Shown piece after piece: positions 30,432-62,477 of a stretch of 64,000 nt of DNA. Position 1 is the first letter of the stretch, and each line of letters starts with the position of its first letter. Source of the DNA: a virus. The stretch spans positions 54,156 to 118,155 of the IMG/VR virus record IMGVR_UViG_3300027881_000536, one strand, 5' to 3'. A model generated the notes under the pieces. The model did no database searches, was not told where the DNA came from, and was given only the letters and a program-made list of their open reading frames with translations. Made by a program: the position numbers and the translations under genes.

Positions 30432-30457
30432 CCTGTCCCTATCAAGAAAGAATAAGC

Positions 30458-33436: not shown

Positions 33437-33438
33437 AA

Positions 33439-33669: not shown

Positions 33670-33730
33670 ATTCCTCCAGCGTCGTCTGTCTACTCTCTTC
33701 TTCTGTCATTGTTCTTCTTTCTTCTATCAT
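33650..33730 (-). CDS. PIP-box micro-protein (26 aa), missed by the ORF track
   Basis: MIEERRTMTEEESRQTTLEEFGFEFH begins 1 nt after the polB stop and contains QxxLxxF. Confidence 0.5.
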   Translation of the reverse strand: MIEERRTMTEEESRQTTLEEFGFEFH

Positions 33731-33731
33731 A

Positions 33732-36050: not shown

Positions 36051-36142
36051 CCATCACATCTTGGAGCAATCACTCTGCCGCAAGCACGACAGTGAGTAGT
36101 GTCAACTCCCTGCCAACCACAGAAACAATGCACTACTTTCAT
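36038..36142 (-). CDS. Cys-rich micro-protein (34 aa)
   Basis: MKVVHCFCGWQGVDTTHCRACGRVIAPRCDGCSE has ATGA overlaps on both sides and six Cys. Confidence 0.6.
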   Translation of the reverse strand: MKVVHCFCGWQGVDTTHCRACGRVIAPRCDGCSE

Positions 36143-36225
36143 ACTGCCACACTCATATTCCACATCATTAGGGCAACGGCTATTCCACCGAGCATTATCA
36201 AAGCCCAATCCCAATCTCTATCCAT
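36139..36225 (-). CDS. Single-TM micro-protein (28 aa)
   Basis: MDRDWDWALIMLGGIAVALMMWNMSVAV abuts the clamp stop. Confidence 0.5.
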   Translation of the reverse strand: MDRDWDWALIMLGGIAVALMMWNMSVAV

Positions 36226-36981: not shown

Positions 36982-37032
36982 GCGCCTTCCCCCATTTTTG
37001 GCGCAGCCTCGTGTATAAGAGTGTTTATAGTA

Positions 37033-37995: not shown

Positions 37996-38183
37996 TGTTG
38001 GAACCCCCTATAGTGATTCTCACGAGCAGATTCCCACATATGCCTTATTTCGGCAGTCATATCAAGTGACTCATCTTTGCTGATATTTGGGTCTTTAGCA
38101 TTCTCACGAATCCACTTAGCGATGGTTTTGTCATCATCACCATTGTGTAGCATGATATCTATGTTCTTGAAGAACCCCATCAC
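37992..38183 (-). CDS. Hypothetical protein (63 aa)
   Basis: ATGA overlaps on both sides. Confidence 0.6.
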   Translation of the reverse strand: MMGFFKNIDIMLHNGDDDKTIAKWIRENAKDPNISKDESLDMTAEIRHMWESARENHYRGFQQ

Positions 38184-39526: not shown

Positions 39527-40436
39527 TCCTCATTCTCTTCTCTTCTCTCCCGTTAGGGAGGGACAGAGACCCCACGAACCAGTCAATAAACCCTCTGTTA
39601 TCTAGAGGCCATTGGTGGGTCGAAAGGACTGCGTCCCCCCATACCTTGGAGTAGTGGTGGAACCTATCTGGCTCCATATCTAAGTCGCGCACTCTATCGT
39701 GCAACATGTTGAGTATAGTCATCATATTCCTGCCTGGTTGGTTGAGTGAGTAGAGTTCTTCTCTCAATGATACCCAATCTCCACCAGCGATGGAAAGGGA
39801 GGCTTCAGACAGCATCTCTGCTTTGATGGTGGCCATATTTTCGAGTTCTCTAGCGTCCTGCACAGTTTGGGCCGCTATGCCGAGACTGCGAAGGTCTCCA
39901 TTGAAAGCCATACCTATCTTGCCGATATTGTAGCCGTTCCACCCATATGTTGACTTACATAGGTGTCTGAAGTTCTTTTGCAGAAACGCATGCACATGGG
40001 TGGTCCCGTATGGCGCGAAATGTAGTGTGTGGCATCGCGAGCGCAACGCGGGTATGATGTTAGCCTCTTCGTTGGCTGTGAGTATGAACAGCGCATGACC
40101 TTTCTCTATGGTCCTGCGTAGGGCGTCTTGGGCCTGTCTTGTGAGACCATCTGCCTCATCGAGTAGTATGATGGTGGTATCACTGTAGCCACGCTGTGTT
40201 GCTACCTGCTTCACACGCGTGCGTATGAAGTCTATACCGCGCTCATCAGAGGCATTGAATTCGTGCACATCAGCATCTAGGAACTGACCTACTGCTAGTG
40301 CTGTAGAGGTCTTACCAGTGCCTGGAGGCCCTACGAATAAGAGGTCAGGGACATTGTTTGACTCACATAATTCTCTCACTTGGCAGATGGGATGGGTGGA
40401 ATCATCACTCCCAATCAAGTCCTCGAATGTCAACAT
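39495..40436 (-). CDS. rfcS: Replication factor C small subunit (clamp loader)
   Basis: GPPGTGKT, EFNASDERGID, LLDEADGLT, ALRSRC. Confidence 0.95.
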   Translation of the reverse strand: MLTFEDLIGSDDSTHPICQVRELCESNNVPDLLFVGPPGTGKTSTALAVGQFLDADVHEFNASDERGIDFIRTRVKQVATQRGYSDTTIILLDEADGLTRQAQDALRRTIEKGHALFILTANEEANIIPALRSRCHTLHFAPYGTTHVHAFLQKNFRHLCKSTYGWNGYNIGKIGMAFNGDLRSLGIAAQTVQDARELENMATIKAEMLSEASLSIAGGDWVSLREELYSLNQPGRNMMTILNMLHDRVRDLDMEPDRFHHYSKVWGDAVLSTHQWPLDNRGFIDWFVGSLSLPNGREEKRMRSENEHAEKEK

Positions 40437-40462
40437 GGAACCCCTCCGATGTACCCCAAGTG

Positions 40463-40468
40463 CTTATA
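40463..40468 (-). promoter_or_regulatory. Candidate TATA box for rfcS
   Basis: Minus-strand TATAAG lies ~27 nt upstream of the ATG at 40436, followed by a GGAGGGG RBS. Confidence 0.3.
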
Positions 40469-40823
40469 CTATTTCCTCGAACTGTCTCATAAGTTCGGAG
40501 ATGTCACCATGATTCATCTTACGAGCAGTAGGGGCATCCATAGTGATTAGCAATTTCTGTAGGTTACCCCCATCCTTCACTGCCTCCCATACGGGTGCTA
40601 GAAGTGAGAGGACCTTCTGTATCTGCTCCTTGTCCCTCAAGACTCTACCATGCACACCCTTTGTTGCAAGCCATAGATTCAGTTCGGGTTCGTCTTCCAT
40701 ACTTGTATACACCTTTCGATGCACTTTGTATCCTAGTTTCCGCTTGGGGGAGAAGTGAATGCTGGCTTGGAAGCGAGCATCTCGGGCTAGCCATGCTAGG
40801 AAGAAATCATCGTGCCTGTCCAT
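40464..40823 (-). CDS. Degenerate LAGLIDADG-fold protein (119 aa)
   Basis: FLAWLARDARF resembles the LAGLIDADG helix, followed by GYKV...strand...EL..WL..KG as in single-motif homing endonucleases. Confidence 0.45.
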   Translation of the reverse strand: MDRHDDFFLAWLARDARFQASIHFSPKRKLGYKVHRKVYTSMEDEPELNLWLATKGVHGRVLRDKEQIQKVLSLLAPVWEAVKDGGNLQKLLITMDAPTARKMNHGDISELMRQFEEIV

Positions 40824-42150
40824 TACCTTCCCTCTCTATGATATCGCCGTATTGGAGTGCATCACTCATCCCTAGCCCTGTGTCTATACGGACGAGATAT
40901 GCTCCTTCGAGTCTGTGGTCCCTGCAACGCAGGGCGTGAAACAGCCCCACTAGGGGTATTTCGAGTTCTGTCCATACCTTCCTTCTACAGGCTTCCGTGA
41001 GTATGGAGTTATCAGGGAGATTTTCCCTCTTGACATTAGCATACCCCACATGAATGGGGTCAAAACCGTCTAGAGCCTCTATCCTCAAGTCTATCCACTC
41101 ACCATTCTTCTGCTCTTTGGCTTGGGTTATGAGGAGTGGCATCTCATAGATTCTTTTGGGCTGGATGAAGCCCCCTCTGTGCTGACCATGAATGTGTGGT
41201 TTGTCTCCATCAATGAGTCTGAGCACTTCCCCATCTTCCATAGCCTGTGAGAGTGTCCTGAGATGAGCAGCATCTCTTATTCTCTGAGGTTTTACTGACC
41301 TTGCTTGGTATTCCATTTCCCACTGGTCGGGGTTGGCTTCTGTGTGGAGCCACTCTATCACATCCCCCCCTTCGTCTACCAAAGCCACACAGTCTCCTCC
41401 TATGGCTAGGTCTGCTGGTGCGTTAGGTAGTATCTCACCCATGCCGTCATACACGAAGATGTCATCTTGGTATTGGTGCGCGTACCTGCGTGGACCTGAT
41501 ACAATCTCGTAGTAAGTGTTCAAGAATGGGACAGACCAGTATTTCCAGGGACCGAATGATGGGGCCCTGAATGGGTGGCCTGGTTGAATGCGAAATTCAT
41601 CAGAAAGAGTACCTTCTATAGCCCTACCAAGGACTACTGCGATATTCTCCACTGATAGAGCACTTGTAAGCCTCTCTGGGGGGTACTTACCTCCACCATG
41701 TGCAACGGCTCTGAGCAGCCTCTTACGGGGCAAAACTGGCCTTTCTCCGAGGGCTCTACACCATAGGGCTTCTGCAGACCTCTTATCCATCTTAGCGAAG
41801 ATGGCTTTTATGTCTGGAGCAGTCTCTATGACTCTCAATTCTGAGACACAGGATAGGGCTTCTGGGATTGTCATGTTGTCCTCACATTCATCTGGTGATT
41901 CTGATACCAATGCTGGGACCAATGGAGCCCCTTCAATGAGTTCAAACTCCTCGGGAAACATACCTAGTCCTCTGTGTAGAGCACTCATTATGTGCTCAGG
42001 CTTGAGAATGGCTGGCCCATAGAGGAGAGAACAGAACTCTTCAAGTTCTCCTTTGTTCTCTACCAGAAAGTTATACAGTAAACTCTCTTGTTCTCTGCTC
42101 TCCGCTGTATTGACAGCAGTAACTAAGATAGCAGCGTCATCTATTTTCAC
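40807..42150 (-). CDS. ATP-dependent DNA ligase homologue lacking catalytic motifs (pseudo-ligase, 447 aa)
   Basis: DBD, adenylation and OB domains appear in the expected order, but motif I reads EIVSGPR (no K). GTG start at 42150 (MKIDD). Confidence 0.7.
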   Translation of the reverse strand: MKIDDAAILVTAVNTAESREQESLLYNFLVENKGELEEFCSLLYGPAILKPEHIMSALHRGLGMFPEEFELIEGAPLVPALVSESPDECEDNMTIPEALSCVSELRVIETAPDIKAIFAKMDKRSAEALWCRALGERPVLPRKRLLRAVAHGGGKYPPERLTSALSVENIAVVLGRAIEGTLSDEFRIQPGHPFRAPSFGPWKYWSVPFLNTYYEIVSGPRRYAHQYQDDIFVYDGMGEILPNAPADLAIGGDCVALVDEGGDVIEWLHTEANPDQWEMEYQARSVKPQRIRDAAHLRTLSQAMEDGEVLRLIDGDKPHIHGQHRGGFIQPKRIYEMPLLITQAKEQKNGEWIDLRIEALDGFDPIHVGYANVKRENLPDNSILTEACRRKVWTELEIPLVGLFHALRCRDHRLEGAYLVRIDTGLGMSDALQYGDIIEREGNGQAR

Positions 42151-42301
42151 GCTTCTTTCTCTCCTTCTGCTTTCTATCCAAGTAACATTTCCCACAGTTT
42201 ATTGCGTTAGCGAGGTTCCCTTTAGTATTCAATTTGTTGAGCACTACCCCACAATTATCGCAATGCGTGCGACGGTGTCTTAACCCGCCCACGCGTATCA
42301 C
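42137..42301 (-). CDS. Zn-finger micro-protein (54 aa), missed by the ORF track
   Basis: GTGA overlap; ...HCDNCG...NCGKCY... followed by a basic tail. Confidence 0.65.
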   Translation of the reverse strand: MIRVGGLRHRRTHCDNCGVVLNKLNTKGNLANAINCGKCYLDRKQKERKKRENR

Positions 42302-42540
42302 TCAGGCGCGGGCGTGAGCGCCCACACGCATATGCTATAACTGCCGCTCAGCGTGCCTGCGCGTCTTGTGTCACTAACTTTCACAATCTGCTTATCTTTG
42401 GCCAGCACATTCCCCAATTGCTGGGGAGTTGTGCCGTGCCGCATAGTGCTGTTTATGTATTCCAATATCTGTTGGGTATTACACTCACCATTTGTTGCTA
42501 GGTATCTCTTAATGTTCTGTCTTAGGCGTGTAGTCCTCAT
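42298..42540 (-). CDS. DUF3860-family winged-helix DNA-binding protein
   Basis: INSTMRHGTTPQQLGNVLAKDK...SG.Y.IC.W closely matches, from memory, the DUF3860 (PDB 2OD5) signature. Start at MRTTRL via ATGA overlap. Confidence 0.85.
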   Translation of the reverse strand: MRTTRLRQNIKRYLATNGECNTQQILEYINSTMRHGTTPQQLGNVLAKDKQIVKVSDTRRAGTLSGSYSICVWALTPAPE

Positions 42541-43226
42541 TCCTCTTCCTCTCCTTTTCTTCTTACACACATGAGTCCCCTCATGTGTAGGGGGACAGGT
42601 TTGCCGCCCCATTCGCTACCAAGGGGCTGAGCATATAGGTCTTCCCAATATCCTTTATCTACTGCTTCCACCATTTGCTCAGGTTGGATTGGGAACCACC
42701 CTCCCCAAGTATAGAAGAGGGTCTCCCCCGCGACTAGATAGTAGTCATCGGGACTGAGATATATCACTTCCTCACAATCACAAGTGACTCCTACTACCCA
42801 TCTATCGGCGAGGGTTTCCTCCCCACTCTCGTCTACGAATTGGTTATTCCCTAGAACCTCCCATTGAGCATTCCCCAAGTCCATGTTAACCACTGGAGTT
42901 TCATTACAATGGGGGCATAGCCATGATTGAGCCTCCTTCTGCATCATCTCAGCGGCTAGTTGAGGGTCATCGGGGATGATTTTGGTTTGCTCCATTTCTA
43001 GATGCCAGCCTATCATTTGCAACACGACTTCTACTCTGCGTGCAGCCATCTCTGCTCTCTCGGTTCTGGTGAGGAGGGTGAGAGTGGCGTCCCCCGTCTT
43101 GCGAAACGCCATCTCTCCCTCCATCCAGTCTTGCCCCATCTCTAGGTTCTCAACGACACCCCTAGTCCATTCTAGGTCTTCTTCTGTGGGCTCCCATGAT
43201 GAAGGTGTAAGATGGTCATTCACCAT
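42537..43226 (-). CDS. Hypothetical Zn-binding protein (~229 aa)
   Basis: CPHC...CDC; start placed at MVNDHL. Confidence 0.6.
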   Translation of the reverse strand: MVNDHLTPSSWEPTEEDLEWTRGVVENLEMGQDWMEGEMAFRKTGDATLTLLTRTERAEMAARRVEVVLQMIGWHLEMEQTKIIPDDPQLAAEMMQKEAQSWLCPHCNETPVVNMDLGNAQWEVLGNNQFVDESGEETLADRWVVGVTCDCEEVIYLSPDDYYLVAGETLFYTWGGWFPIQPEQMVEAVDKGYWEDLYAQPLGSEWGGKPVPLHMRGLMCVRRKGEEEE

Positions 43227-43567
43227 TTCAAGAACCTCCTTTTGAATCCTGTAAGGAAACCCCCCATACCTTTTGATGTGGATTTCGGTTTGTTCTTCAA
43301 CCAATGTGACCAGACCTCACAATGATAACATGGTACAATGAAGTACTTATCACTCACCAGCAATAACTCATCTTCTTTCACTTTTGCATTACAACAAGCC
43401 ATTGTTCTCAATTTGTAACAGAATTTCGCTTCTGAATCCGTTTTCACGATGTGGTCTATGTCTATCATCTGACCAGCAACTTGTAGAGAGCCTAATTCGT
43501 AGGCTTCACCTTCTACATGAACCAGCCCATCTTCTTGCAACTCGTACACGCTTAACCTCCTGTTCAT
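43220..43567 (-). CDS. Hypothetical protein (115 aa), Cys-rich
   Basis: Coupled ORF with ACC...CYHC. Confidence 0.55.
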   Translation of the reverse strand: MNRRLSVYELQEDGLVHVEGEAYELGSLQVAGQMIDIDHIVKTDSEAKFCYKLRTMACCNAKVKEDELLLVSDKYFIVPCYHCEVWSHWLKNKPKSTSKGMGGFLTGFKRRFLKW

Positions 43568-43894
43568 TCACTCGTTCTCCTCTGGGATTAGGTCTGTCAG
43601 AAGAACCTGTGTGTGGTGTGTGATTGGTATTTGCCCATCTATACCACCACTACTCACATGTTGACATTGTGTTTGGCTATACATAGCATAGCATCCACAC
43701 CTTTCACAGATTATTTGTATCGTCTGCACATATCTAAGGTTGGAACCTATTCCCTCTAGTTTCCATACATGGTCATGAACCTCGCACTCTAGAAGGCCTT
43801 CATAGGCCCTCTTATTCTCCTCTAGGGATTGTGCTTGTTGTGCTAGTTCTTTCGTCTGTTCTTCTATTTCGTTTAACTTCTGTGTTATCGTCAT
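43568..43894 (-). CDS. Hypothetical coiled-coil/Zn-finger protein (108 aa)
   Basis: N-terminal coiled coil; CxxHxHxW...CERC. Confidence 0.6.
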   Translation of the reverse strand: MTITQKLNEIEEQTKELAQQAQSLEENKRAYEGLLECEVHDHVWKLEGIGSNLRYVQTIQIICERCGCYAMYSQTQCQHVSSGGIDGQIPITHHTQVLLTDLIPEENE

Positions 43895-44127
43895 ATTTCT
43901 TCTCCTCTTCTTACATAGTCAACATGGTCATCTGGGAGGTATTTCCTCAGTTTCTCTCGTTTCCTATCGAATTCTTCTCGTAACTTCTTGGCGGCTTTCG
44001 TCACCCTATCGTATGCTACTGGGTCATCCTTCGGACCCAACTCCTGGAATATCTTACCAAATTTGAATTGGTATAGTATCGCTCCTACAATCTCATATTC
44101 CGCGTGTTTCTGGCTTTTTGCTCTCAT
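43891..44127 (-). CDS. Hypothetical protein (78 aa)
   Basis: ATGA coupling. Confidence 0.55.
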   Translation of the reverse strand: MRAKSQKHAEYEIVGAILYQFKFGKIFQELGPKDDPVAYDRVTKAAKKLREEFDRKREKLRKYLPDDHVDYVRRGEEI

Positions 44128-44305
44128 TCTTCTCCTCTCCTAATGTGAATTTGATTCTGGGTCGCCCATCATCTACTGGCTCGACAGATGGCTTTGGTGC
44201 TGATGGTGCTAGGTAAGCACAGCCCTTGCACCAAACCTTGTTACCTATACCCCTGTAGACAGGGGCCTTTTTGTCGCATTCTGTGCATTTCTTGATGATT
44301 TTCAT
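44093..44305 (-). CDS. Zn-finger protein (70 aa)
   Basis: CTEC...CKGC. Confidence 0.55.
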   Translation of the reverse strand: MKIIKKCTECDKKAPVYRGIGNKVWCKGCAYLAPSAPKPSVEPVDDGRPRIKFTLGEEKNESKKPETRGI

Positions 44306-46014
44306 ATCAGTGCCCTCCCAGCCATCAGGGAGTCTGCGACTGCCTGCGCCACTATCATCTTATCGCTTTCTGAGCCATCCAAAGCGGCTTTTACTATTGC
44401 TTCCTTATCCCTGACAACCTTGTCGAAGTGGGTGTCCACCGTGTTGGCGGCACTTAGAATGACTTGGTGGCACACATCGCTCTCTTGTGTTATGCGCCTC
44501 ACACGCGAGGCTGCTTGCCTCTCATGGGCCGGAACCCACTCCCTCTCTACGAATAGCGTGGTGTCTGCAGCGTCGAGGTTGACTCCTTCTTTCATGGCTA
44601 GTGTGCTACAAATTAGAAATGGGAGTTTACCCTCTTGGAACTCTGAGATTAGTTCTTGCCTCCGCTTGTCCGGTGTGGAGCCTGTGATACAGAGCATAGT
44701 ATCTTCCCCGGCCTCTATCATGAGGCTCTCTGCCAGTCCCTCCACGACATCTCTGTGATGAGCAAACACCACTATCGGTTTGGGCCTGTAGGTGTCTATG
44801 TAATGCATAACCCAACTGAAAGCCCCCTTCACCTTGGCTCTTCCAGCGGCGTGTCTGAGGTCTGTGAGGATGTTCAGCAGGAGGCCAGGAGGTATGCTTC
44901 CGCTACCCGTTGTCCTGTAATGCTCTAACTCATCCATCAGTGTGTTGTAGACTATATCATACTGAGTGCGTGAGATGTCCACCTCTATGATGGTCTGCAA
45001 CAGGTCAGGCATTTGGTCTGACAGTCTTGGGTCATCCATCGTTCTCCTTAGCATGATGTCTTTGAGTAGGTGGTTGAGGGGTGGGGTTATCCCATCGTCG
45101 CTAATCTCTATGTTGCTAGCCCCGTCAAAGTTCCAACCATATCCGTTATGGATTGCTCCACAGTATTTTTTCCCGAACAGGTAGTAATTGTTGAATGAAA
45201 AGGGTCTCAGCATGTTGAGAACTGTGAATACCTCTGAAGGTCTGTTCAGAATGGGTGTGCCACTCATGGCTATCATACCCTTGACTGTAGGCCAAGCCGC
45301 CAATCTCTTAGCGGCTTTCGTTCTCTGGGCCTTTTGATTCTTGAGTGTGTGACACTCATCGAAGACGATACAGTCGTAATCGTCCGCTAGAAGTTCATCT
45401 ACTCTAGCGTGTAGCAAATCATAATTGATAATTGTGATGTCGGATACTCTGTACTCCTTCTTGTAGCCGTAGATGACTGAAGCATCCATCTCTGTCCACT
45501 TCTCCACCTCGTTGGCCCAGTTCACCTTGACCACAGAAGGACAGACTATGAGCACCCTCTGATACTGGCCGGAGAGAATGCACAAGAGAGCCTGGAGAGA
45601 CTTACCTAATCCCATGTCATCTGCTATGAGTAACCTCTCTCCGTGCCCAAACATCTCTGGTGCTACCCATTGGTAGGGTCTCACCAATTCTGGGTTCTTG
45701 AGTCCAGCGAGCCACATCGGTTCAGCCTCTATCGCACTACTGAGGAGGACTCTCTTTGCTGCTGTCTCATGGGCACTATTTACCTCAGGGACAGCAAGTA
45801 TGGCTTCTGAAAGTTCAAGGTAGTGGGGCTTGACTGCCTTAGCCACTTGAATGCCTGATGCTGCTGGAATGAGCCATTCCTTACCCTTTGGACTCCATCT
45901 AGCCTGCCCGCAAGACTTCACAGCAGAATTGATGTCTGTGTAGTTTGGTTTGTATGGCCACTTCATAGATAGTTTGTCAGGTGGTTTGTAACTAACTGTA
46001 ATTGTCTTGGTCAT
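44302..46014 (-). CDS. SNF2-family helicase (SMARCAL1/HARP-like)
   Basis: ADDMGLGKS, DECH, SGTPILN, EGVNL, QAASRVRR; N-terminal 'WSPKGKEWLIP' HARP-like segment. Confidence 0.9.
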   Translation of the reverse strand: MTKTITVSYKPPDKLSMKWPYKPNYTDINSAVKSCGQARWSPKGKEWLIPAASGIQVAKAVKPHYLELSEAILAVPEVNSAHETAAKRVLLSSAIEAEPMWLAGLKNPELVRPYQWVAPEMFGHGERLLIADDMGLGKSLQALLCILSGQYQRVLIVCPSVVKVNWANEVEKWTEMDASVIYGYKKEYRVSDITIINYDLLHARVDELLADDYDCIVFDECHTLKNQKAQRTKAAKRLAAWPTVKGMIAMSGTPILNRPSEVFTVLNMLRPFSFNNYYLFGKKYCGAIHNGYGWNFDGASNIEISDDGITPPLNHLLKDIMLRRTMDDPRLSDQMPDLLQTIIEVDISRTQYDIVYNTLMDELEHYRTTGSGSIPPGLLLNILTDLRHAAGRAKVKGAFSWVMHYIDTYRPKPIVVFAHHRDVVEGLAESLMIEAGEDTMLCITGSTPDKRRQELISEFQEGKLPFLICSTLAMKEGVNLDAADTTLFVEREWVPAHERQAASRVRRITQESDVCHQVILSAANTVDTHFDKVVRDKEAIVKAALDGSESDKMIVAQAVADSLMAGRALI

Positions 46015-51103: not shown

Positions 51104-52711
51104 TCATAGTGCACTTATGCCGTGCACCTCTGTATATGCTGGGGTATCTCCCAGCCATTCTTCCATTAGATTTTCATTCAGTATATGGGCCATAACAGGC
51201 CTTCTGTCCTCTATATTGTATTCGATATCGGAATAATCTGCGTGGAACAAGGTGTTGTTCAGCAGGTCTGTGAACACATCATTGACTCTCTTGAGTCTCC
51301 CATCTAAGGTGTCCATACCCAATGCTGTCCCATCGAGTTTCCTCTTGTCATCAAACACAGTAGGCTTGTGAGTTATGGCTCCTGTGAAGCATTGTAGCGC
51401 ATGATACGCTGTATTCTTCTCATCGGCTGCTCTCACATAGTACAGGCTAGGGTCTTTCCAACCCTGTGATAGAGCCAAATCCATATGACTCCTGTTGATG
51501 TTCTTGACCTCTTGAGTCTCTTTGTTTTTGATGACTCTAGGTGGTGATAGACCTATGTTGTTCTCACTCATCACATACATCAGTTTGTCCATCAGTTGGA
51601 TGTCCATCGGAACCCAAGAGAGCAGTTCGGTATTGACCAACCACTCATTGAGTTCTGCTGTGGCATTCACTAGGTCTAAGCCTAACACATCCCAATCAAT
51701 ATCAGCCATGACTCCCTTGGTATGTCTGAGGTTCAAGGCTGTCTTGATGCCTCCAGCAACTGCAAGGTTGCTGCAATAGGTTCTCAAGGCTCCACCATGA
51801 ACGCTGAAGGAACCTCTCCCATCTAGGCTGTTGTTAATCGTAAACCCAAACTTGTAGAGTCCATCCAGGTTCTGGGCAGCCTCACTAAATGCGTCTGTGC
51901 TTAGGAAATTGTGTCCCCTCTCCTTCAATTGGGCTGCTGCTGCTTTCCTAGTCTGTGCCGCTTGGGTCACATCTAAGTCCACTCTACAACGAGCACCATC
52001 ATTCCATGCTGTGACTGACGAGTTGATGTTGGACATCTCTGCGTATCTCAGCATCGGCTCCACCCATTGAGGGTGCGGAAGCACATGGTATCTATCGCTG
52101 ACTGAGCCCAGTAGGGCTCCAGCAGGTCGTGTCTCTGATTTCATCGCTGGGTTGAATATACTCCAAGTGGCTGCGCTGCCATTGGGCTTGTTCACCCTTA
52201 CGAACTCCTCTCCACTAAACACAAAGTTAGGTAGGAACTCTGGTGTGAAGTTCCAAGGAGCCGTCTTCCTGGCTCTCCCTCCCTTCAACAGGGCTCCATC
52301 CCATACATCTGCGGAAGAATCTACTTCTTCGGCTTCCCATACCTTAGCAAACTCCACTCCTTTCGTTAGTTCTGTTGTTGGGGTGTCGTTGATGCGTGCT
52401 ATGAGGTTCTTCTCTGCTGCACCTTGTTCTACCATGTCTATCAGGTCTATGTGCAATTCGCTACTTGGCTGCACTGGCTGTCTCTCTCCTTTGAAGACCA
52501 TCTCGGGTCTGAATACTCCTCCAGGTGTCTCAAATTGGGACACCTTACAGAGCCATTCTCCCTCTTTAATCTTGAAAGTGGTCAAGGCATCGAATGGGAC
52601 TAGGGTGATTGTATCGTCTCCCCCTATAGCCGAGTAGTGTAGCGATACTACTGTCCCAGATTCGCTCTTCTTGACCTTATCTGCTATCATTATTATTTTC
52701 TGTTTTGTCAT
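51104..52711 (-). CDS. DUF932-family phage/plasmid protein with N-terminal extension (535 aa)
   Basis: VSDRYHVLPH, NSLDGRGSF...RTYCSN...LRHTKG signature. Confidence 0.75.
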   Translation of the reverse strand: MTKQKIIMIADKVKKSESGTVVSLHYSAIGGDDTITLVPFDALTTFKIKEGEWLCKVSQFETPGGVFRPEMVFKGERQPVQPSSELHIDLIDMVEQGAAEKNLIARINDTPTTELTKGVEFAKVWEAEEVDSSADVWDGALLKGGRARKTAPWNFTPEFLPNFVFSGEEFVRVNKPNGSAATWSIFNPAMKSETRPAGALLGSVSDRYHVLPHPQWVEPMLRYAEMSNINSSVTAWNDGARCRVDLDVTQAAQTRKAAAAQLKERGHNFLSTDAFSEAAQNLDGLYKFGFTINNSLDGRGSFSVHGGALRTYCSNLAVAGGIKTALNLRHTKGVMADIDWDVLGLDLVNATAELNEWLVNTELLSWVPMDIQLMDKLMYVMSENNIGLSPPRVIKNKETQEVKNINRSHMDLALSQGWKDPSLYYVRAADEKNTAYHALQCFTGAITHKPTVFDDKRKLDGTALGMDTLDGRLKRVNDVFTDLLNNTLFHADYSDIEYNIEDRRPVMAHILNENLMEEWLGDTPAYTEVHGISAL

Positions 52712-55735: not shown

Positions 55736-56025
55736 TTCTCCTCCTTCAGTAGTCGGTGTAGTGCAGGTGTAGGTGAACGCATACAGGTGTCTTTGAGCGT
55801 GTATCTCTTCTCAATTTCCAAAATTATCTTCAGCATAATCTTCTTATCGTTAGCATCATCTGTATCTTCCATCTTTTTCGCAAACATGTGCAGACAAGCC
55901 ATGACACTTGTAGTTGGGAAGTCGTTGCATACCTTGTCCAGCGGTGGTAATTTTGGGTCACCTTTCGCAGCAGACCACATGATGTTAGCAATCGTATTGG
56001 GTGTCAGAGGTGGTTTATTACTCAT
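55732..56025 (-). CDS. Hypothetical protein (97 aa)
   Basis: Coupled ORF. Confidence 0.55.
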   Translation of the reverse strand: MSNKPPLTPNTIANIMWSAAKGDPKLPPLDKVCNDFPTTSVMACLHMFAKKMEDTDDANDKKIMLKIILEIEKRYTLKDTCMRSPTPALHRLLKEEK

Positions 56026-56641
56026 CCTCTGACACCTCAATAAAGTTCATGCATAGCCAAGCAAGAAGCCACTCTTGCCTCACACAAGGGTAGTTCTCGT
56101 TCGGATGCTTGACGATAGCATCCAAATGACTGAATGCCACGAACAGAGATTCGCCGTCTGCCATTGTGAACTCAAGCATCTTGACATCTTCATCTCTGTT
56201 GTTCTTACCATCAGTAACTCCAACAAACTCCATTATCATGTAGTCTGAGGCTTCGCTAGCAAAACTAACCACATTGTGACTAGACTCCTGAAGCCTTCTC
56301 CCTAATTCCATCATCTCGTGTTGGTCTATGGAACCATTGGCAGTTGGGATGTTGAAAGCCATACCATACTGCCTTAGTGCTCTATCCGAGCCTGTCTGGC
56401 AGAATGGTGTGCCAATTTCTTCTTTCATCAATTGATGAACTTCTGCAGGGTCGGGGTGTCCAAACTGTAGGTGTAGACTCCCGCCGTTCTGCAGGTATGA
56501 CGATTTAATCCTGAACTCTGGTGCAGTCAGGTTTGGTGCTCCCTTCTCACCTTCGATGTTATCATCGAAGATTTCAGTAACATCGTTTTCGGGAACGACC
56601 TTCGTCGGTTTTGTCAAGTATTTTTTAATGTTTTCATTCAT
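56018..56641 (-). CDS. Hypothetical protein (~207 aa)
   Basis: Start MNENIKK inferred from the overlap. Confidence 0.55.
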   Translation of the reverse strand: MNENIKKYLTKPTKVVPENDVTEIFDDNIEGEKGAPNLTAPEFRIKSSYLQNGGSLHLQFGHPDPAEVHQLMKEEIGTPFCQTGSDRALRQYGMAFNIPTANGSIDQHEMMELGRRLQESSHNVVSFASEASDYMIMEFVGVTDGKNNRDEDVKMLEFTMADGESLFVAFSHLDAIVKHPNENYPCVRQEWLLAWLCMNFIEVSEDE

Positions 56642-56861
56642 TTTCTTCATTCTCCTGTTTCTTGGAGTCGTTGTATGCATTGTTGATGCAGAATATCGCC
56701 TTTTGGTTGAGATAATCGGCTCTCCTATCGTAGCCTTTTCTCTGCTCATCAGTTAGATTAGGATTATTGCTCTCCCCAATAGCGTGTATCATCTCACTCA
56801 TTATGTATGCGATTTCCCTCACCCAGTAATTATCGTGGTTAGCGCTTATCTCAGACGACAT
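56634..56861 (-). CDS. Hypothetical protein (75 aa)
   Basis: Start MSSEISAN inferred from the overlap with the phosphatase stop. Confidence 0.5.
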   Translation of the reverse strand: MSSEISANHDNYWVREIAYIMSEMIHAIGESNNPNLTDEQRKGYDRRADYLNQKAIFCINNAYNDSKKQENEENE

Positions 56862-58356
56862 TGTAGTCATCCTCCCCTGTGGTAGTTTCGTTAGTTGGAC
56901 CATTACCCTCTTCCTTCGCCTCACCTTGTTTAGGTGGGTTTGGGTCATCGGGCCAGTTCTTTCTATTGGTAAGCCTGAACCAATGCTGTGGACTCACACC
57001 ATCTAAGATTAATCCATCTTCCTTCACCAATTGATTAGTGAAGAAGAACGATGCATCCTTACTCTTATTGATACACTCAGGGCAAGCCTTGAGTGTGGTA
57101 GCATTCTTGACATCCAGAGCCATAGTTAGTATATGAGGGCTCAATTTCTTGAAACAGTAGTCGCACTTCACATGATGGACAAAGCCTCGGTCCCCTTTGG
57201 TGTAGTTAGGAGCATCTGACCTATCCTTCATGGTGATATCACACAGTACACAAGAATCTACCACGATGACATTTTCAAGTATCTTGTCCTCTCCATCTAA
57301 CACCGTAGTCCATACATTTACAAGGTTCCTAAGCAGGTTACCTTTGCAGGTGTTACTTGAGTTCAATCTCGTCTGACTCTCTAACAAGTCTGCCCAATTG
57401 TCACCATGTAGTGTTGTCATTAACTCTTCACTGAGATGATTTATTGACATCACTTGAAGGTCGCTAACCGGTTGTAAACACTTCAAACACATGCAGTAGT
57501 CGGTAGAATTGGTAGTGGTATCTCTCTTGACCACGAAGGGGCTCACATCCACTAATTTACCTTGACACTTGATGTCGAAACACCATTCGTCTTTCAGTAT
57601 GTCTTCATCAGTGTTCTCCCAAGATACGAAGTCACATAGTGTGCACTCCACCAACTTGATGTTGTAGTTGGTCTTAGCAGGTGGGTTCTTCTGCCAACCA
57701 CTTGTGCTACCACCGTAAACACTGTGGCCTTGGGTGTATCCCTTGTGGAATCCAAGTGGGGGTCCAACTTCTATTTCACACATATCTGCTACATACTTCT
57801 GTTGTGCTGTCGCTTCTACTGCCTTTTGGCAGTAATTATCTCTGACTTCGGTGATGAGTTCGTTGGAATCTTTCCAAGTCTTCTTCTCTTCATCACTAGC
57901 CAATAGATATCTTAGGATAGACAGTTGCACACCAGTTCTACCGTGTCCGCCCATACACATACAGTGGATGGACTTAATCTCGTTAGTCCTGATGTTCTCT
58001 GCCAGTTCTTCCCAGAACTCTTTGCCTAAATCTTGCGGGACTTTGTAATCAGGGAAGTCTATCGCAAGTATCTCCTTAGGTTCTACTTGCTCTATCTTGC
58101 TCATGCAAGACCATTTCTCCGCGTCCAGACCTCTTGTTGAGTACTTACTAGGCATACCCTTCATTACTTCGTTGTCTGGCCCCATAGCCAAGTCTGGTGT
58201 CTCATCCATGAGCCACCATCCTCCTGCTCTACTACTACCACCTGCATAGACCTTTATTCCGTCATGCGTGGTGAAGGCGAGTGGGTTACCTGTATGGCAT
58301 TCAACCCATCCACCTTTCTTTGTTGTTTTTCCTTGCTGATATTTTGTATCAATCAT
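56851..58356 (-). CDS. Cys-dependent (CX5R) PTP/DSP-fold phosphatase with C-terminal Zn fingers (501 aa)
   Basis: DFPDY general-acid loop, HCMC-MGGHG-RTG P-loop, AVEATAQQKYV Q-loop, five CxxC-type pairs; ATGA-coupled to the upstream giant gene. Confidence 0.8.
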   Translation of the reverse strand: MIDTKYQQGKTTKKGGWVECHTGNPLAFTTHDGIKVYAGGSSRAGGWWLMDETPDLAMGPDNEVMKGMPSKYSTRGLDAEKWSCMSKIEQVEPKEILAIDFPDYKVPQDLGKEFWEELAENIRTNEIKSIHCMCMGGHGRTGVQLSILRYLLASDEEKKTWKDSNELITEVRDNYCQKAVEATAQQKYVADMCEIEVGPPLGFHKGYTQGHSVYGGSTSGWQKNPPAKTNYNIKLVECTLCDFVSWENTDEDILKDEWCFDIKCQGKLVDVSPFVVKRDTTTNSTDYCMCLKCLQPVSDLQVMSINHLSEELMTTLHGDNWADLLESQTRLNSSNTCKGNLLRNLVNVWTTVLDGEDKILENVIVVDSCVLCDITMKDRSDAPNYTKGDRGFVHHVKCDYCFKKLSPHILTMALDVKNATTLKACPECINKSKDASFFFTNQLVKEDGLILDGVSPQHWFRLTNRKNWPDDPNPPKQGEAKEEGNGPTNETTTGEDDYNVV

Positions 58357-61300
58357 TCTATTTTCTCCCATTGTGTTACACTGAGAACATCGTCTGTTTC
58401 AGTGTGGAGTTCTTTTAACAGTGTATTGGTATCTCTATGACCAATAAGATTTGAACCGGACATTCTCTGCAGTACCTCCTTGAAGAAACCAGAGTCACCG
58501 GTTTTTGCCCATTTCTCCTTGCCTTTAGAATAAAGGCGCCTAGTATTGAACATATGAGAGTGCATAAACATATTACTATCCTCTTCCCAGATGGCAGCAG
58601 CCTTGTCTAACTCATCTGCTTTAGCGTAGATTTTGGGATAATACTTATCACAATTGTTCCATGCATCAATAGCAGTCGATGTATTGAAATCCTGTGAAAC
58701 CAAAGAGATACTGATTTGCCATCTCGCCAACATTTTATCTATCCACAAGTGCATATTTCCTGTATCATCATCATGATGAAATAACAGACTACCACCGGTA
58801 TATTTCGACACTTTCATTTCACCATGCTTTACCAAACGCTCCTTCTCCTCGAATATTGTCTGCTCAGGTGCTCTTGTGCTCATACCAGTAATCTCTGATT
58901 CTATTTGTGCTACGGTTGGGATATGCTCTGGGTCAACTTGGATTGTCCAATTACTCATGTATGTCGACAAAGCCATTGATACCATTGCCGCTTCCTCGCT
59001 TGTTAATCCCATTTCTTTTGTAGCAAAGTAATTTTGACAATCCTGTCGCTCACATTGGTCTAATCCGCAGATACCTTCAACATGCATAGTGTAACCATTA
59101 TTAAGTGGTATACCAAACAAATCCCTATCTTCATCAGAAACATCTAAATTGTCCCATGATTCTGTTAGTGGTTGATTAGAATCACTTGGTTTAGACATAC
59201 CATAGATTTCTTCTGCTGAGAAGGTCTTGAAATCACAATCTCGGTTACTTTCCTTAACTCGATTGGCTGCATTCTGTAGGTGCTGGATAAGTTTGTCATG
59301 ACCCTTTGCAACTCTTTCAGGCTCATTGACATAGTTAGTGTAGAACATGGCGTAGAATGGTGCTGTGACCAACCAGTGCTCAGAGGCTGACTGGAAGTTA
59401 TTGTGACCGAGTGTACCTATGTCAAATGCATCCTTATCTCCGAGGAATTTGTTGAAGAAGAAGCCTGTGTTGTGCACAGCATTCTCCAACTTGTTCACTT
59501 GACTTAGTATTCTCGATAAAGGTACATTCTTACCATTCATTAACTTCTTGACTAATTCTGTGACCTTTACCGTAGGATTGACTGAACTGAAGTATTTGTC
59601 ACCACCGTATGAATTACTATGCCATTGATTGTGCTCCTCACTGTATGACTCAGCGTAGAACTTAGCGATTTCATGCAAGTCATCATAGCCTATTTCATTG
59701 TAGTTGAGTCTTCGGTAGTATTCACTCCTTTGGAATAGGTTCCCGACACCACTCTCCCCAGAGATAGCCTTCTGGTACATTATGTGTGAGAATGCCCTAT
59801 GTGGAGTCATATTACATCTACCTCCTAATCCGTGCCTTAGTTCAGCCATACCGACTGCTAATGCTGCTTTAGTTATCCATGTAGTGAACACACCACCAAG
59901 GTATGCTTCTAGTCTTGGGTCATTCTTGGGACCACTGATGAAACTGTGGAAGAATTGTGATAATGGTGCTAGATTGTATGTCCAGAACCTATCTCCATCT
60001 CTCAACCCTATCTTGTAGAAGTCAAGGAATGGTTCAGGGTCGTATGGCTCAGGCTCTGCCTCCGGCATATCTGTGACCCAACCCCCTATCTCCGTCCACA
60101 CAGTGTGGTTCTTCTTTGGTTTGATACCATAGATAACAGGGAAGCCGAAGTCTATCGACACACCTCCAACATGAGCGTTCTGTGTACCTCCAGGGGCGTA
60201 GACTACCAAGCCTTCAGGTAATTCTCCATCTTTAGCCATCTGTTCAAGTTCCAAACACTCTTCAAGCGAGCCTTTACCCACATCCATGACTACTAATTGT
60301 TCAACTGAACCTGCTGGGACATTCCCAGCGATGTGTAGAACAATGCCGTTCACCTTTGGTGGCGGTCTAATGTCCATCTTTTCAGTGTGTAATCCTCTCA
60401 TTTGAGTGATTCCGGGCTTTATTCTAGCATTTTTGCCAGTATGCCTATCATCAGCAGTTTTCTTGAACCAAGTCAATGTACTACTTGATTTTGGGTTCTC
60501 ATATACGAACTCTATTTCGTGGTTATCCATACCATCTTCGAGATTGATGAGTCTGATGTCTTGTGCAAGGTATCTCTGTGCTCTAGCATTAAGGCTGAAC
60601 ACTATATTGCTACCACCACCTGCTGTAACTCCATCATGGTGAGGACCAACTATGAATGAAGAGGAAGTTTTACCAACCACACCTGAGCACATAGGTTTCT
60701 TGAATCTCTGGACTATCAAAGAACCATTAGGGTCGTAGTCAGAGTGACTCGGGTTGAGCATGCACTGACTCAGCATCCTAACACCTTCAATGAATTCCTC
60801 CTCATTCTTAGCGAGCACATTAGGTAGTGCTCCCGGACGAGGTGTTGCAGGGCAGGTTCTGATGAAGAAGCCACTCTTAGTCCATATCTTTCTCGATGGA
60901 CTACCTGTTCCCCATGTCCTGTATAGGCTAAGCAACAAATCTCTTGCTGAACTTACAGCAGCAGTATCTAATGAAAGGTGTAATGCTCTTGCAGAGTAGA
61001 ACAGGTGGTATTCCTGATTCAATGCTATCGCTCTAACACCTTTGGCCTTCTGTGACTCTGGGTCGAAGTTACCATCATTGGAATCGTAAACCAAGAAACC
61101 CTTCATGAAGATACTAGACATTATGTCTCCTTTAGACATCTCCAAATACTTTTTGAGTGTTTCTTTCATATCTTCAGATGACTTGTCAGAGGTCGACAGG
61201 TTAGACTGTCGTTGCAGGGCACCTTCTCGATGTGGTTGTCCCATATCTATAGTTTTAATCAAAGCATCATCAATAGCATTACCCACTACTTGTGCTATGA

Positions 61301-62477
61301 CTTCTGTCAAGCGTCCAATAATATCTCGCCTCTCTTCAGTAGAGAGTGCGTCGTTATAGCAATCATCAATTAATGGCATTGCGGTTTGACTCACGATGAC
61401 TTGCATGAAATCGCTAAGTGTAGAGGCCTTACCACACAAAGAGTAAATGTGCTCTTTGAATAGTTTCTTCGCTTCGTGCTTGAGAAGATTATCTATTAGC
61501 GTTTCAATAAAGTTGAATAATTGCTCATTAGAACATCTTAAGGAGTTTACGAAGGTATTCTCCATTTTCTCTCTGGACATAGTCGTGGATGTCAGTGCCC
61601 AACTGTCATCAAACCTGTATAAGGCTTCAAGTATCTTTGTGGCTCTCTTGTTAGAGTTAACGGGATAGACCGTTTGTTTCTTCTTTTCTTTATTTTCTTT
61701 ATTCATAATATCTACCATCTTTTGAAGGTTAGAAATTGCGGTTTGTTTGTTAGGGCCCCAATCGTCATCAGACAAGTAGCCATCATCGGGGATGTTTTTG
61801 CCACCTGTCCATTTTGTTTGTTTCTCCTGACCTGACGGGGTGAACTCTGGCATCTTCTCAAGGTAAGAGTTAACGATGTATACTGGTCTCCCTGAGGGAA
61901 GATGGTATATCATCTCTCCTTCCAAGTAACATGTTAGAACACTCTTGGTACATGGTGTGACTTCATGAGTTGGAGGGCTATCGGGATTCTTCTGTACCCA
62001 CTCATCATCGAATTCAAGAGGGTCAAAGAGTGACAAGTTGCTAATGGCGCTTGGCTTGAACACAGTTGATAGTAAGATAAGTGCTTGATTAGCAATGTGG
62101 TACTTTGCCCAATTAGATGCATTTAGTGAGTCATATTCACCCATATTATGGAAGGCACTCGCTTCAAGGTCAAATTCAGTGCCGACAATCTCAGGGAACA
62201 ACTCACCGAAGTCAGATAGACCGTGGTGCACCTTATGATAAGGGCATATTTTACAGTCATGGTCAGTACAATGGTCCCAATCAGGGTCCTCGAATTCTTC
62301 TCCGCTAGGTCCGTCATCATACCACTTGTTAACGAATTTTGTCATATCCCTATGTAGTACACCTATCAATGGAATAGTTTCAATGGAACACCACTTGCTA
62401 ATGACGCTTGGCTTGAACACAGTGGATTGCGTAGTGTCTGCTATTGTGTTATGAGTATGGTTATCCATCAGGGCCAC
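58353..62477 (-). CDS. Dikinase-like phosphotransferase: PEP-synthase-type ATP-grasp plus phospho-His swivel plus unknown domains (1374 aa)
   Basis: IRT, LIVQRF, SGV, DGVTAG, EIEF and ITQMRG align with PPS motifs VRSS, VQRM, SGV, GE.VV.G, DIEW and VQARP. YAPGGTQNAHVGG...FGFPVIYG aligns with GGxTxHAAI...GIPAVVG. Confidence 0.75.
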   Translation of the reverse strand: MALMDNHTHNTIADTTQSTVFKPSVISKWCSIETIPLIGVLHRDMTKFVNKWYDDGPSGEEFEDPDWDHCTDHDCKICPYHKVHHGLSDFGELFPEIVGTEFDLEASAFHNMGEYDSLNASNWAKYHIANQALILLSTVFKPSAISNLSLFDPLEFDDEWVQKNPDSPPTHEVTPCTKSVLTCYLEGEMIYHLPSGRPVYIVNSYLEKMPEFTPSGQEKQTKWTGGKNIPDDGYLSDDDWGPNKQTAISNLQKMVDIMNKENKEKKKQTVYPVNSNKRATKILEALYRFDDSWALTSTTMSREKMENTFVNSLRCSNEQLFNFIETLIDNLLKHEAKKLFKEHIYSLCGKASTLSDFMQVIVSQTAMPLIDDCYNDALSTEERRDIIGRLTEVIAQVVGNAIDDALIKTIDMGQPHREGALQRQSNLSTSDKSSEDMKETLKKYLEMSKGDIMSSIFMKGFLVYDSNDGNFDPESQKAKGVRAIALNQEYHLFYSARALHLSLDTAAVSSARDLLLSLYRTWGTGSPSRKIWTKSGFFIRTCPATPRPGALPNVLAKNEEEFIEGVRMLSQCMLNPSHSDYDPNGSLIVQRFKKPMCSGVVGKTSSSFIVGPHHDGVTAGGGSNIVFSLNARAQRYLAQDIRLINLEDGMDNHEIEFVYENPKSSSTLTWFKKTADDRHTGKNARIKPGITQMRGLHTEKMDIRPPPKVNGIVLHIAGNVPAGSVEQLVVMDVGKGSLEECLELEQMAKDGELPEGLVVYAPGGTQNAHVGGVSIDFGFPVIYGIKPKKNHTVWTEIGGWVTDMPEAEPEPYDPEPFLDFYKIGLRDGDRFWTYNLAPLSQFFHSFISGPKNDPRLEAYLGGVFTTWITKAALAVGMAELRHGLGGRCNMTPHRAFSHIMYQKAISGESGVGNLFQRSEYYRRLNYNEIGYDDLHEIAKFYAESYSEEHNQWHSNSYGGDKYFSSVNPTVKVTELVKKLMNGKNVPLSRILSQVNKLENAVHNTGFFFNKFLGDKDAFDIGTLGHNNFQSASEHWLVTAPFYAMFYTNYVNEPERVAKGHDKLIQHLQNAANRVKESNRDCDFKTFSAEEIYGMSKPSDSNQPLTESWDNLDVSDEDRDLFGIPLNNGYTMHVEGICGLDQCERQDCQNYFATKEMGLTSEEAAMVSMALSTYMSNWTIQVDPEHIPTVAQIESEITGMSTRAPEQTIFEEKERLVKHGEMKVSKYTGGSLLFHHDDDTGNMHLWIDKMLARWQISISLVSQDFNTSTAIDAWNNCDKYYPKIYAKADELDKAAAIWEEDSNMFMHSHMFNTRRLYSKGKEKWAKTGDSGFFKEVLQRMSGSNLIGHRDTNTLLKELHTETDDVLSVTQWEKIE
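62038..62423. repeat. 29-bp direct repeat (1 mismatch), 357 bp apart, in frame within the dikinase-like gene
   Basis: TTGCTAATG(G/A)CGCTTGGCTTGAACACAGT at 62038-62066 and 62395-62423, encoding TVFKPS(A/V)IS twice. Confidence 0.9.

What the first reader, a model, noticed from the sequence alone, without database searches (positions are those of the whole stretch)
59440..60870. PEP-synthase-like catalytic core with the pyruvate barrel replaced by an uncharacterised acceptor domain
Seen: ATP-grasp motifs (~60390-60870) and a swivel domain with the His codon at 60171-60173. Instead of the PEP/pyruvate TIM barrel there follows a helical region with conspicuous motif-like blocks AELRHG (~59830-59850), W..NSYGGDKY (~59590-59620) and HNTGFFFNK (~59450-59475). 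A ~450-aa N-terminal region precedes the core. Inference: not a metabolic AMG but a new dikinase class whose substrate is specified by the ELRH/YGG/HNxG domain.
Basis: partly seen in the sequence, partly recalled or inferred. Interest (0 to 1): 0.75.

Follow-up and report, generated by a model that had tools for sequence, protein, structure and literature searches.

The report
Viral dikinase with novel acceptor domain
A marine archaeal virus encodes a large enzyme whose ATP-binding and phosphate-carrying parts look like those of pyruvate phosphate dikinase, but whose substrate-binding part is a helical domain of no known fold; it always sits next to a tyrosine-phosphatase-like gene and a small acidic protein, and its substrate is unknown.

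Summary
The gene (window 58353-62468, minus strand, 1371 aa from the ATG) carries every motif at the stated coordinates, including His769 at 60171-60173.

The following roughly 270-aa domain is all-helical (pLDDT 91), not a TIM barrel, and has no PDB analogue above noise. Its ExRH, YGG and HNxG..NK residues are invariant or nearly so across 95 relatives.

New here:
- The family (163 cluster representatives) is confined to magrovirus-like archaeal viruses.
- In 30 of 30 loci with downstream flank it is followed by a classical-PTP-like phosphatase (WPD, CX5R, Q-loop).
- In 28 of 32 loci a small acidic protein X is also present.

Best reading: a new dikinase class in a three-gene phosphotransfer module. 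The acceptor is unidentified. The scan reached the same reading earlier on another genome (e1-5843951).

The parts
58353..62468 (-). Dikinase-like gene, 1371 aa from the ATG at 62468 (the longest ORF starts at GTG 62477). Residue numbers in this report follow the 1374-aa ORF.
   Evidence: P0002, 1371 aa, 100% identical; TGATG overlap with the upstream stop
61056..62468 (-). Acidic N-terminal extension (residues 4-474, pI about 5). It is conserved only in the closest clade and carries an internal repeat TVFKPS(V/A)IS at residues 19 and 138.
   Evidence: no Pfam, PHROGs or PDB hit
60363..61055 (-). ATP-grasp nucleotide-binding domain (residues about 475-705). Conserved residues: S475-Q-K477, R540/C542/P543/R547/G549, T618, E654/E656, Q692/R694.
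60042..60362 (-). Phospho-histidine swivel domain (residues about 706-812). The candidate phospho-carrier is His769, codon 60171-60173, in PGGTQNAHVGG.
   Evidence: It superposes together with the ATP-grasp on the RPH and PPDK swivel domains. hhalign aligns it to PpsA GGRTCH421. His is invariant in A1 and A6 and at least 90% conserved in A2 and A4.
59238..60041 (-). All-helical putative acceptor domain (residues about 813-1080). Conserved residues: E879-x-R881-H882, R917, W952, G958-G959, N995, H1002-N1003, K1010.
58356..59237 (-). Acidic C-terminal extension (residues 1081-1374) with a conserved H-x2-G-x-C-G-x3-C-x4-C cluster at 59037-59084. This is probably a zinc site.
   Evidence: (cluster conserved in long and mid-length forms)
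56851..58356 (-). Coupled partner gene: a classical-PTP-like cysteine phosphatase domain (about 200 aa) plus a tail with repeated CxxC pairs. Its ATG at 58356 overlaps the dikinase stop as ATGA. The WPD-type loop DFPD is at 58048-58059. The P-loop C139-MGGHG-R145-T is at 57937-57957.
   Evidence: Profile A3 against PDB: RPTP-alpha E 1.4e-8, aligning the WPD loop, P-loop and Q-loop. Invariants. Adjacent in 30 of 30 loci with downstream flank. Start codon.
56018..56641 (-). Protein X, the third module member: about 207 aa from M37, acidic (pI 4.7), with invariant H93, Q95, R126, Y128, G129, S162 and Y170 (numbering of the 243-aa ORF 56018-56749).
   Evidence: Clusters 2 and 40 are homologous (hhalign probability 91.7%, E 7.8e-7). 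Alignment A7. Present in 28 of 32 loci. Only a weak SseB-like lead from the Atlas, score 0.87.

Best explanation
The gene encodes a new class of dikinase-type phosphotransferase from magrovirus-like archaeal viruses.

Inferred mechanism, by analogy with PPDK, PEP synthase and RPH:
1. The ATP-grasp domain binds Mg-ATP. Candidate ligands are K477, R540, E654/E656 and Q692/R694.
2. The beta-phosphate passes to His769 on the swivel domain, releasing AMP and Pi (or PPi).
3. The swivel domain rotates to the C-terminal helical domain.
4. There a pocket of invariant polar residues at helix ends (E879, R881, H882, R917, W952, G958, G959, N995, H1002, N1003, K1010) holds the acceptor and catalyses phosphoryl transfer.

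The enzyme works within a conserved, translationally coupled three-gene module. Its partners are a classical-PTP-like cysteine phosphatase, which most likely hydrolyses the same or a related phosphoester, and a small acidic protein X, a candidate substrate or adaptor. The module lies in the early/replication block near the genome end.

Shown here: the fold of the core, a non-TIM helical domain, residue invariance, gene linkage and virus restriction. Inferred: catalysis, direction of transfer and the role of each partner. The acceptor is not identified. My leading guess is a hydroxyl group, possibly Tyr on protein X or on a host protein.
For: - The AF2 model of residues 480-1100 has pLDDT 85 and pTM 0.89.
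- Top Foldseek PDB hits are RPH and PPDK, E about 1e-4, probability up to 0.99.
- The best viral structural match is phage G gp139 (E 2.4e-7), which is a genuine PF01326 + PF00391 protein.
- hhalign places His769 on PpsA His421 (E 7e-4). One distant family member has a sub-threshold PF00391 hit.
- The helical domain model has pLDDT 91 and no PDB analogue.
- Invariant residues are listed.
- The PTP partner matches RPTP-alpha at E 1.4e-8 with all three catalytic loops.
- The module is conserved: 30 of 30 loci with flank, plus two more contigs.
- X is shared across the family.
Against: - No acceptor, no ligand-binding evidence and no coordinates were available to test whether the invariant residues form one pocket.
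- Kinase and phosphatase acting on the same substrate would form a futile cycle unless they are regulated.
Confidence: 0.7

Rival explanations
1. Small-molecule dikinase. Like RPH, phenylphosphate synthase or HpeHI, the enzyme phosphorylates a metabolite, for example a host antiviral compound or a precursor the virus needs. The PTP-like protein and X act on a different step or target.
Against: The strict coupling to a classical-PTP-like phosphatase and to X is not explained. No biosynthetic genes are nearby. The helical domain does not resemble the RIF-binding domain.
Confidence: 0.25
2. Nucleic-acid end-healing pair. The dikinase phosphorylates 5'-OH ends and the PTP-fold enzyme removes 3' or 5' phosphates, as in T4 Pnkp. 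They would work with the virus's ligase-like genes.
For: Kinase plus phosphatase is the logic of end-healing enzymes, which is established knowledge for T4 Pnkp. PTP-fold RNA 5'-phosphatases exist (BVP, PIR1). Both proteins carry Cys-rich tails. The module lies in the replication/DNA-metabolism block, with SNF2 helicase, PolB, RFC and ligase-like genes.
Against: All parts are acidic or neutral: PTP tail pI 5.0, helical domain pI 7.4, X pI 4.7. That is unlike nucleic-acid binders. The phosphatase matches pTyr-type classical PTPs best, including the Q-loop. No known polynucleotide kinase uses a dikinase core.
Confidence: 0.12
3. Phospho-relay. The PTP-like protein is the acceptor rather than an eraser. 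His769~P passes phosphate to Cys139, in the manner of PTS EI/HPr to EIIB-Cys, and from there to a final target. The helical domain would dock the partner.
For: PTS EIIB proteins with a PTP-like P-loop accept phosphate on Cys (established knowledge). An earlier scan note (e1-2576832) describes another swivel-domain operon with a phosphatase-like partner and helical proteins. That note was not tested here.
Against: The partner keeps the WPD-loop Asp and the Q-loop Gln, which in classical PTPs drive hydrolysis of the Cys-phosphate. The helical domain's invariant E/R/H/N/K set looks catalytic.
Confidence: 0.08
4. Not a dikinase. The ATP-grasp acts as a ligase or carboxylate-activating enzyme, and the swivel-like domain is structural.
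Against: Only RPH and PPDK align across both domains (264-282 residues). The His lies in the G-x-x-x-x-H motif and is conserved family-wide. The best viral match is a true PPDK_N + swivel protein.
Confidence: 0.06

Closest known systems
Rifampin phosphotransferase (RPH-Lm; PDB 5hv1, 5hv3, 5fbs)
   Different: In RPH the acceptor (RIF-binding) domain lies between the ATP-grasp and the swivel and is alpha/beta. Here the order is ATP-grasp, swivel, then an all-helical domain unrelated in fold. There is no detectable sequence similarity.
Pyruvate phosphate dikinase and PEP synthase (PDB 1dik, 2dik, 1kbl, 2ols; E. coli PpsA)
   Different: There is no PEP/pyruvate TIM barrel and no Pfam PF01326, PF00391 or PF02896 hit. 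The protein is much larger, with N- and C-terminal extensions, and is linked to a phosphatase.
Two-component aryl kinases (HpeHI, PDB 9goj; phenylphosphate synthase)
   Different: They are catabolic bacterial enzymes with an RPH-type substrate domain. They have no helical acceptor domain and no PTP partner.
Bacillus phage G gp139
   Same: It is the best viral structural match (E 2.4e-7) and is a viral ATP-grasp + swivel protein.
   Different: At 365 aa it has clear PF01326 and PF00391 signatures and no acceptor domain. It sits in a nucleotide-metabolism neighbourhood. Sequence similarity to this family is not significant.
Glucan water dikinase with SEX4/laforin glucan phosphatases
   Same: It pairs a dikinase with a PTP-superfamily phosphatase acting on the same substrate (established knowledge; GWD swivel mechanism in PMC13553574).
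   Different: GWD has CBM domains and the reverse order, His domain then ATP-grasp. The genes are not linked and the system is eukaryotic/plastid. No carbohydrate-binding module was found here.

Membership tests
PEP-utilising dikinases (PPDK/PEPS/RPH superfamily) | PPDK_N-type ATP-grasp nucleotide-binding domain, judged by fold | tested here: met
PEP-utilising dikinases (PPDK/PEPS/RPH superfamily) | PPDK_N (PF01326) sequence signature | tested here: not met
   No Pfam hit at E<=1. None in 75 distant members. hhalign against the PpsA profile gives no significant ATP-grasp alignment.
PEP-utilising dikinases (PPDK/PEPS/RPH superfamily) | Swivel (PEP-utilizers mobile) domain with a phospho-carrier His in a G-G-x-x-x-H motif | tested here: met
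   The swivel domain co-aligns with those of RPH and PPDK. hhalign local match to PpsA GGRTCH421, E 7e-4. His is conserved. Pfam PF00391 is only sub-threshold, in 2 distant members.
PPDK / PEP synthase | C-terminal PEP/pyruvate-binding TIM barrel (PF02896) | tested here: not met
   The region after the swivel is a confident all-helical bundle. There is no TIM-barrel match and no Pfam hit.
Rifampin phosphotransferase | RIF-binding domain inserted between the ATP-grasp and the C-terminal swivel | tested here: not met
   The swivel follows the ATP-grasp directly (model residues 225-333). The extra domain is C-terminal and helical.
Any dikinase | ATP converted to AMP, with the beta-phosphate transferred through His~P to an acceptor | not testable with these tools
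   This needs an enzyme assay.
Classical protein tyrosine phosphatases (partner gene 56851-58356) | WPD loop, C-x5-R-(S/T) P-loop and Q-loop | tested here: met
   Profile A3 against RPTP-alpha, E 1.4e-8, aligns all three loops. D105, P107 and D108 are conserved at 90% or more (D108 invariant). C139, G141-G147, E186 and Q190 are invariant.
Classical protein tyrosine phosphatases (partner gene 56851-58356) | pTyr-recognition (KNRY) loop that sets pocket depth | tested here: inconclusive
   No KNRY-like motif appears in the family consensus. The domain is only about 200 aa and was not folded.
Glucan water dikinase | N-terminal carbohydrate-binding modules, with the His domain before the ATP-grasp | tested here: not met
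   The domain order is ATP-grasp then swivel. No CBM hit in Pfam.

The most novel reading that the evidence does not exclude
The module is a virus-encoded protein-phosphorylation system built on dikinase chemistry. The enzyme would use a swivelling phospho-histidine to phosphorylate a hydroxyl, possibly tyrosine, on the co-encoded acidic protein X or on a host protein. The classical-PTP-like partner would be the dedicated eraser. That would be a protein-kinase mechanism unrelated to Hanks, BY or histidine kinases, used by abundant ocean archaeal viruses for host takeover.
Probability: 0.15. Interest if true: 0.88.

Novelty: new variant of a known kind. Interest (0 to 1): 0.66.

Why it matters
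Few dikinase classes are known: PPDK, PEP synthase, glucan dikinases, RPH and the aryl kinases. Each is defined by its acceptor domain. This one has an acceptor domain of no known fold, is confined to viruses, and is conserved across magrovirus-like viruses, reported to be among the most abundant archaeal viruses of the surface ocean (PMC5434244). Those viruses were described as lacking recognisable auxiliary functions, and most of their genes are dark matter. The strict linkage to a classical-PTP-like phosphatase and a small acidic protein defines a three-gene unit that can be expressed and assayed directly. Identifying the acceptor would reveal either a new enzymatic activity or a new way for viruses to rewire archaeal hosts.

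Tried and rejected
- Sequence libraries gave nothing for the dikinase: Pfam, PHROGs, NCBIfam and PADLOC, PDB sequences by phmmer and by two family profiles, megablast and tblastn against GenBank phages, and the ESM Atlas on the helical domain.
- DNA-hypermodification idea. My first guess was a thymidylate-synthase/hydroxymethylase partner, from phrog_17568. I rejected it because the partner is a PTP: CX5R, WPD and Q-loop, E 1.4e-8.
- hhalign of the family against E. coli PpsA and a 15-sequence PpsA profile gave only the His motif. A forced alignment of the ATP-grasp was not significant.
- Stand-alone helical domain. The apparent short hits start at residue 1-20 of their proteins and look like contig-end fragments. 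P0135's frame is open to the contig start. P0086/P0087 is a split at the domain boundary on a 3x-coverage contig, so a frameshift cannot be excluded.
- Cellular homologues. Two scans of 185,579 species genomes found one contig, a 'Parvibaculum' MAG that carries the same viral module.
- Other conserved neighbours (clusters 11, 13, 22, 28) have no family hits.

Full report
**1. What is in the sequence**

The finding lies inside one long ORF, window 58353..62477 on the minus strand, 1374 aa from a GTG. The likely start is the ATG at 62468. It overlaps the stop of the upstream 114-aa gene as TGATG and gives the 1371-aa protein held in the public collection (P0002).

- FIRTCPATPRPG at 60831-60866
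- HEIEFV at 60504-60521
- ITQMRG at 60393-60410
- GGTQNAHVGG at 60162-60191, with His769 at 60171-60173
- AELRHG at 59829-59846
- NSYGGDKY at 59592-59615
- HNTGFFFNK at 59448-59474

About 474 aa precede the core. That tail carries a conserved H..C..C..C cluster at 59037-59084.

**2. Sequence methods see almost nothing**

The following gave no hit for the protein:
- Pfam, PHROGs, NCBIfam and PADLOC
- PDB sequences
- GenBank phages, by DNA and by protein

Profiles of 25 and of 75 relatives searched against PDB sequences gave only a sub-threshold PEP synthase hit at the His motif, E 1.3. Of 85 distant relatives scanned in Pfam, two have sub-threshold PF00391 hits.

I built a PpsA profile from E. 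coli ppsA and 14 viral homologues. hhalign of the family against it gives one local match, which puts the family's GS..SH on PpsA GGRTCH421 (E 7e-4, probability 26%). The ATP-grasp is not recovered. A forced alignment is co-linear from the QxR motif through the swivel domain but is not significant.

**3. Structure rescues the core**

An AlphaFold2 model of residues 480-1100, built with 25 relatives, has pLDDT 85.4 and pTM 0.89.
- Foldseek against the PDB ranks rifampin phosphotransferase and PPDK first, E about 1e-4, probability up to 0.99.
- Among predicted viral structures the best match is Bacillus phage G gp139, E 2.4e-7. I confirmed that gp139 is a genuine PPDK_N + PEP-utilizers protein, with Pfam E 1.8e-46 and 1.5e-21.

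Family-wide invariants fit the catalytic set of PPDK-type domains by position: S-Q-K477, R540, E654/E656, Q692-x-R694 and His769. The residue-by-residue equivalence is my inference. I had no structural alignment at residue level.

**4. The domain after the swivel**

Folded alone with 95 relatives (residues 812-1100) it reaches pLDDT 91.4 and pTM 0.90.

It is therefore not a PEP/pyruvate TIM barrel and not the RIF-binding domain. No known fold can be assigned.

In the 95-sequence alignment (mean column identity 10%):
- E879, R881, W952, G958, G959, H1002 and N1003 are invariant.
- R917, N995 and K1010 are at least 90% conserved.

These residues sit at helix ends and in the two loops at 134-148 and 192-203 of the domain model. 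That placement is what an active-site pocket would look like.

**5. The family and where it lives**

An exhaustive HMMER scan of 1.84 billion representatives found 163 clusters at E<=1e-3 and 44 at E<=1e-30. All are unannotated metagenome proteins of about 540-1590 aa. The shared part is ATP-grasp + swivel + helical domain. The N- and C-terminal extensions of the window protein are conserved only in its closest clade.

IMG/VR holds 29 loci on contigs of 8-108 kb. Two scans of 185,579 species genomes found a single contig, in a 'Parvibaculum' MAG, and it carries the same viral module.

The window is the last 64 kb of a 118-kb virus record. The virus looks like a magrovirus:
- It encodes a PolB whose best matches are haloarchaeal tailed viruses.
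- It also encodes a chaperonin, an RFC-like clamp loader, a primase and an SNF2 helicase.
- Related loci carry the HMGL-like gene reported for magroviruses (PMC10160649).

None of the magrovirus papers I searched mentions a dikinase.

**6. Gene context: a three-gene module**

The downstream gene (56851-58356) hits a PHROG labelled 'thymidylate synthase'. That label is misleading. The gene has these features:
- an invariant C139-x-G-G-H-G-R145-T-G P-loop
- a D(F/W)PD loop about 30 residues upstream
- a V-E-x3-Q-Q-x-Y segment
- a tail of repeated CxxC pairs

A 22-sequence profile hits classical PTP domains in the PDB, with RPTP-alpha at E 1.4e-8. The alignment covers the WPD loop, the P-loop and the Q-loop.

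Its ATG overlaps the dikinase stop as ATGA and is preceded by GGGAG. A homologue lies immediately downstream of, or one gene away from, the dikinase gene in all 30 loci that have downstream sequence (some are redundant), often with overlapping stop and start. The same holds in two further contigs.

A third gene is also conserved. It is the 243-aa ORF at 56018-56749, probably starting at M37, and I call its product protein X. It belongs to a family that lies between the two genes in the long-form clade and after the phosphatase in the others.
- The two sequence clusters are homologous: hhalign probability 91.7%, E 7.8e-7.
- X is present in 28 of 32 loci.
- It is acidic, pI 4.7.
- It has invariant H, Q, R-x-Y-G, S and Y.
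- It has no family or PDB match. The only lead is a weak SseB-like one, Atlas score 0.87.

Further neighbours in related loci include an ArdC-like anti-restriction protein and DUF932. The module sits at the start of the minus-strand early/replication block, near the genome end.

**7. How it most likely works**

I commit to a dikinase mechanism at confidence 0.7. ATP binds in the ATP-grasp. The beta-phosphate moves to His769. The swivel domain carries it to the helical domain, where the invariant polar residues bind the acceptor and catalyse transfer. This follows from the fold match and established PPDK/RPH mechanism. It is not shown here.

The acceptor is unknown. These clues bear on it:
- The nearest ATP-grasp relatives phosphorylate hydroxyl groups of small molecules (RPH; HpeI, PMC12167813).
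- The obligatory partner resembles pTyr-type phosphatases.
- A small conserved protein with invariant Tyr and Ser is co-encoded.
- All components are acidic or neutral, which argues against nucleic-acid binding.

My leading guess is O-phosphorylation of a hydroxyl, on X, on a host protein or on a metabolite, with the PTP as eraser or editor. Kinase-phosphatase operons are common in cellular signalling, for example Wzc/Wzb and PrkC/PrpC (my own knowledge).

The rivals are a small-molecule kinase acting independently of the partner, a nucleic-acid end-healing pair, a His-to-Cys phospho-relay, and a non-dikinase ATP-grasp. Each is scored in the Rival explanations section.

**8. Comparison and novelty**

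It works like PPDK, PEPS and RPH but is not a member of any of those families:
- The TIM barrel (PPDK/PEPS) and the inserted RIF-binding domain (RPH) were tested and are absent.
- The Pfam signatures are not met.
- The domain order differs from that of glucan water dikinases.

I file it as a new variant of a known kind: a virus-specific dikinase class with an acceptor domain of unassigned fold, embedded in a conserved module with a PTP-like phosphatase and protein X.

An earlier agent of this scan reached the same reading on another genome (e1-5843951). My evidence was gathered independently and agrees with it. No paper found in three full-text searches describes this family.

Noticed in passing
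window 56851-58371 (-): phrog_17568 is labelled 'thymidylate synthase', but the matched stretch (residues 102-200) is the WPD/CX5R core of a PTP-like phosphatase. The PHROG label looks like a misannotation.
   Followed up: yes
window 56018-56749 (-): Protein X is a small acidic protein family with invariant H, Q, RxYG, S and Y. It always travels with the dikinase-PTP pair and has no known family. The only lead is a weak SseB-like one.
   Followed up: partly
window 1-12207 (+): An ORF of more than 4068 aa runs off the window start, followed by large fibre or structural genes. It is one of the largest genes in the virus and was not examined.
   Followed up: no
window 26710-46014 (-): An archaeal-type replication block: chaperonin, primase-like gene, PolB, RFC-like clamp loader and SNF2 helicase. 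The PolB's best matches are haloarchaeal tailed viruses at about 24% identity. The virus fits the magroviruses.
   Followed up: partly
L089 (NZQM01000111.1, 'Parvibaculum sp.' MAG), 1-13854: This is the only hit in 185,579 species genomes. The 30-kb contig carries the same dikinase-PTP-X module plus an ArdC-like gene and an SNF2 helicase. It is probably a viral contig binned into a bacterial MAG.
   Followed up: partly
L093:1389-3783: The dikinase is split exactly at the swivel/helical boundary into 351-aa and 450-aa genes that overlap by 14 nt, on a 3x-coverage contig. It could be a real two-component form or a frameshift error.
   Followed up: partly
L014:516-1487 and homologues; window 51104-52711: An ArdC-like anti-restriction protein (PF08401 + PF18818) lies upstream of the module in several related viruses. 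A DUF932 protein lies downstream in the window. Both are typical of early or leading-region genes.
   Followed up: no
L091:9881-10978 (Bacillus phage G gp139): A 365-aa phage protein with genuine PPDK_N and swivel domains but no acceptor domain, in a nucleotide-metabolism neighbourhood. It may be a two-component or truncated viral dikinase of unknown function.
   Followed up: partly
window 62000-62425 (residues 19 and 138 of the dikinase ORF): The peptide TVFKPS(V/A)IS occurs twice in the acidic N-terminal extension.
   Followed up: no
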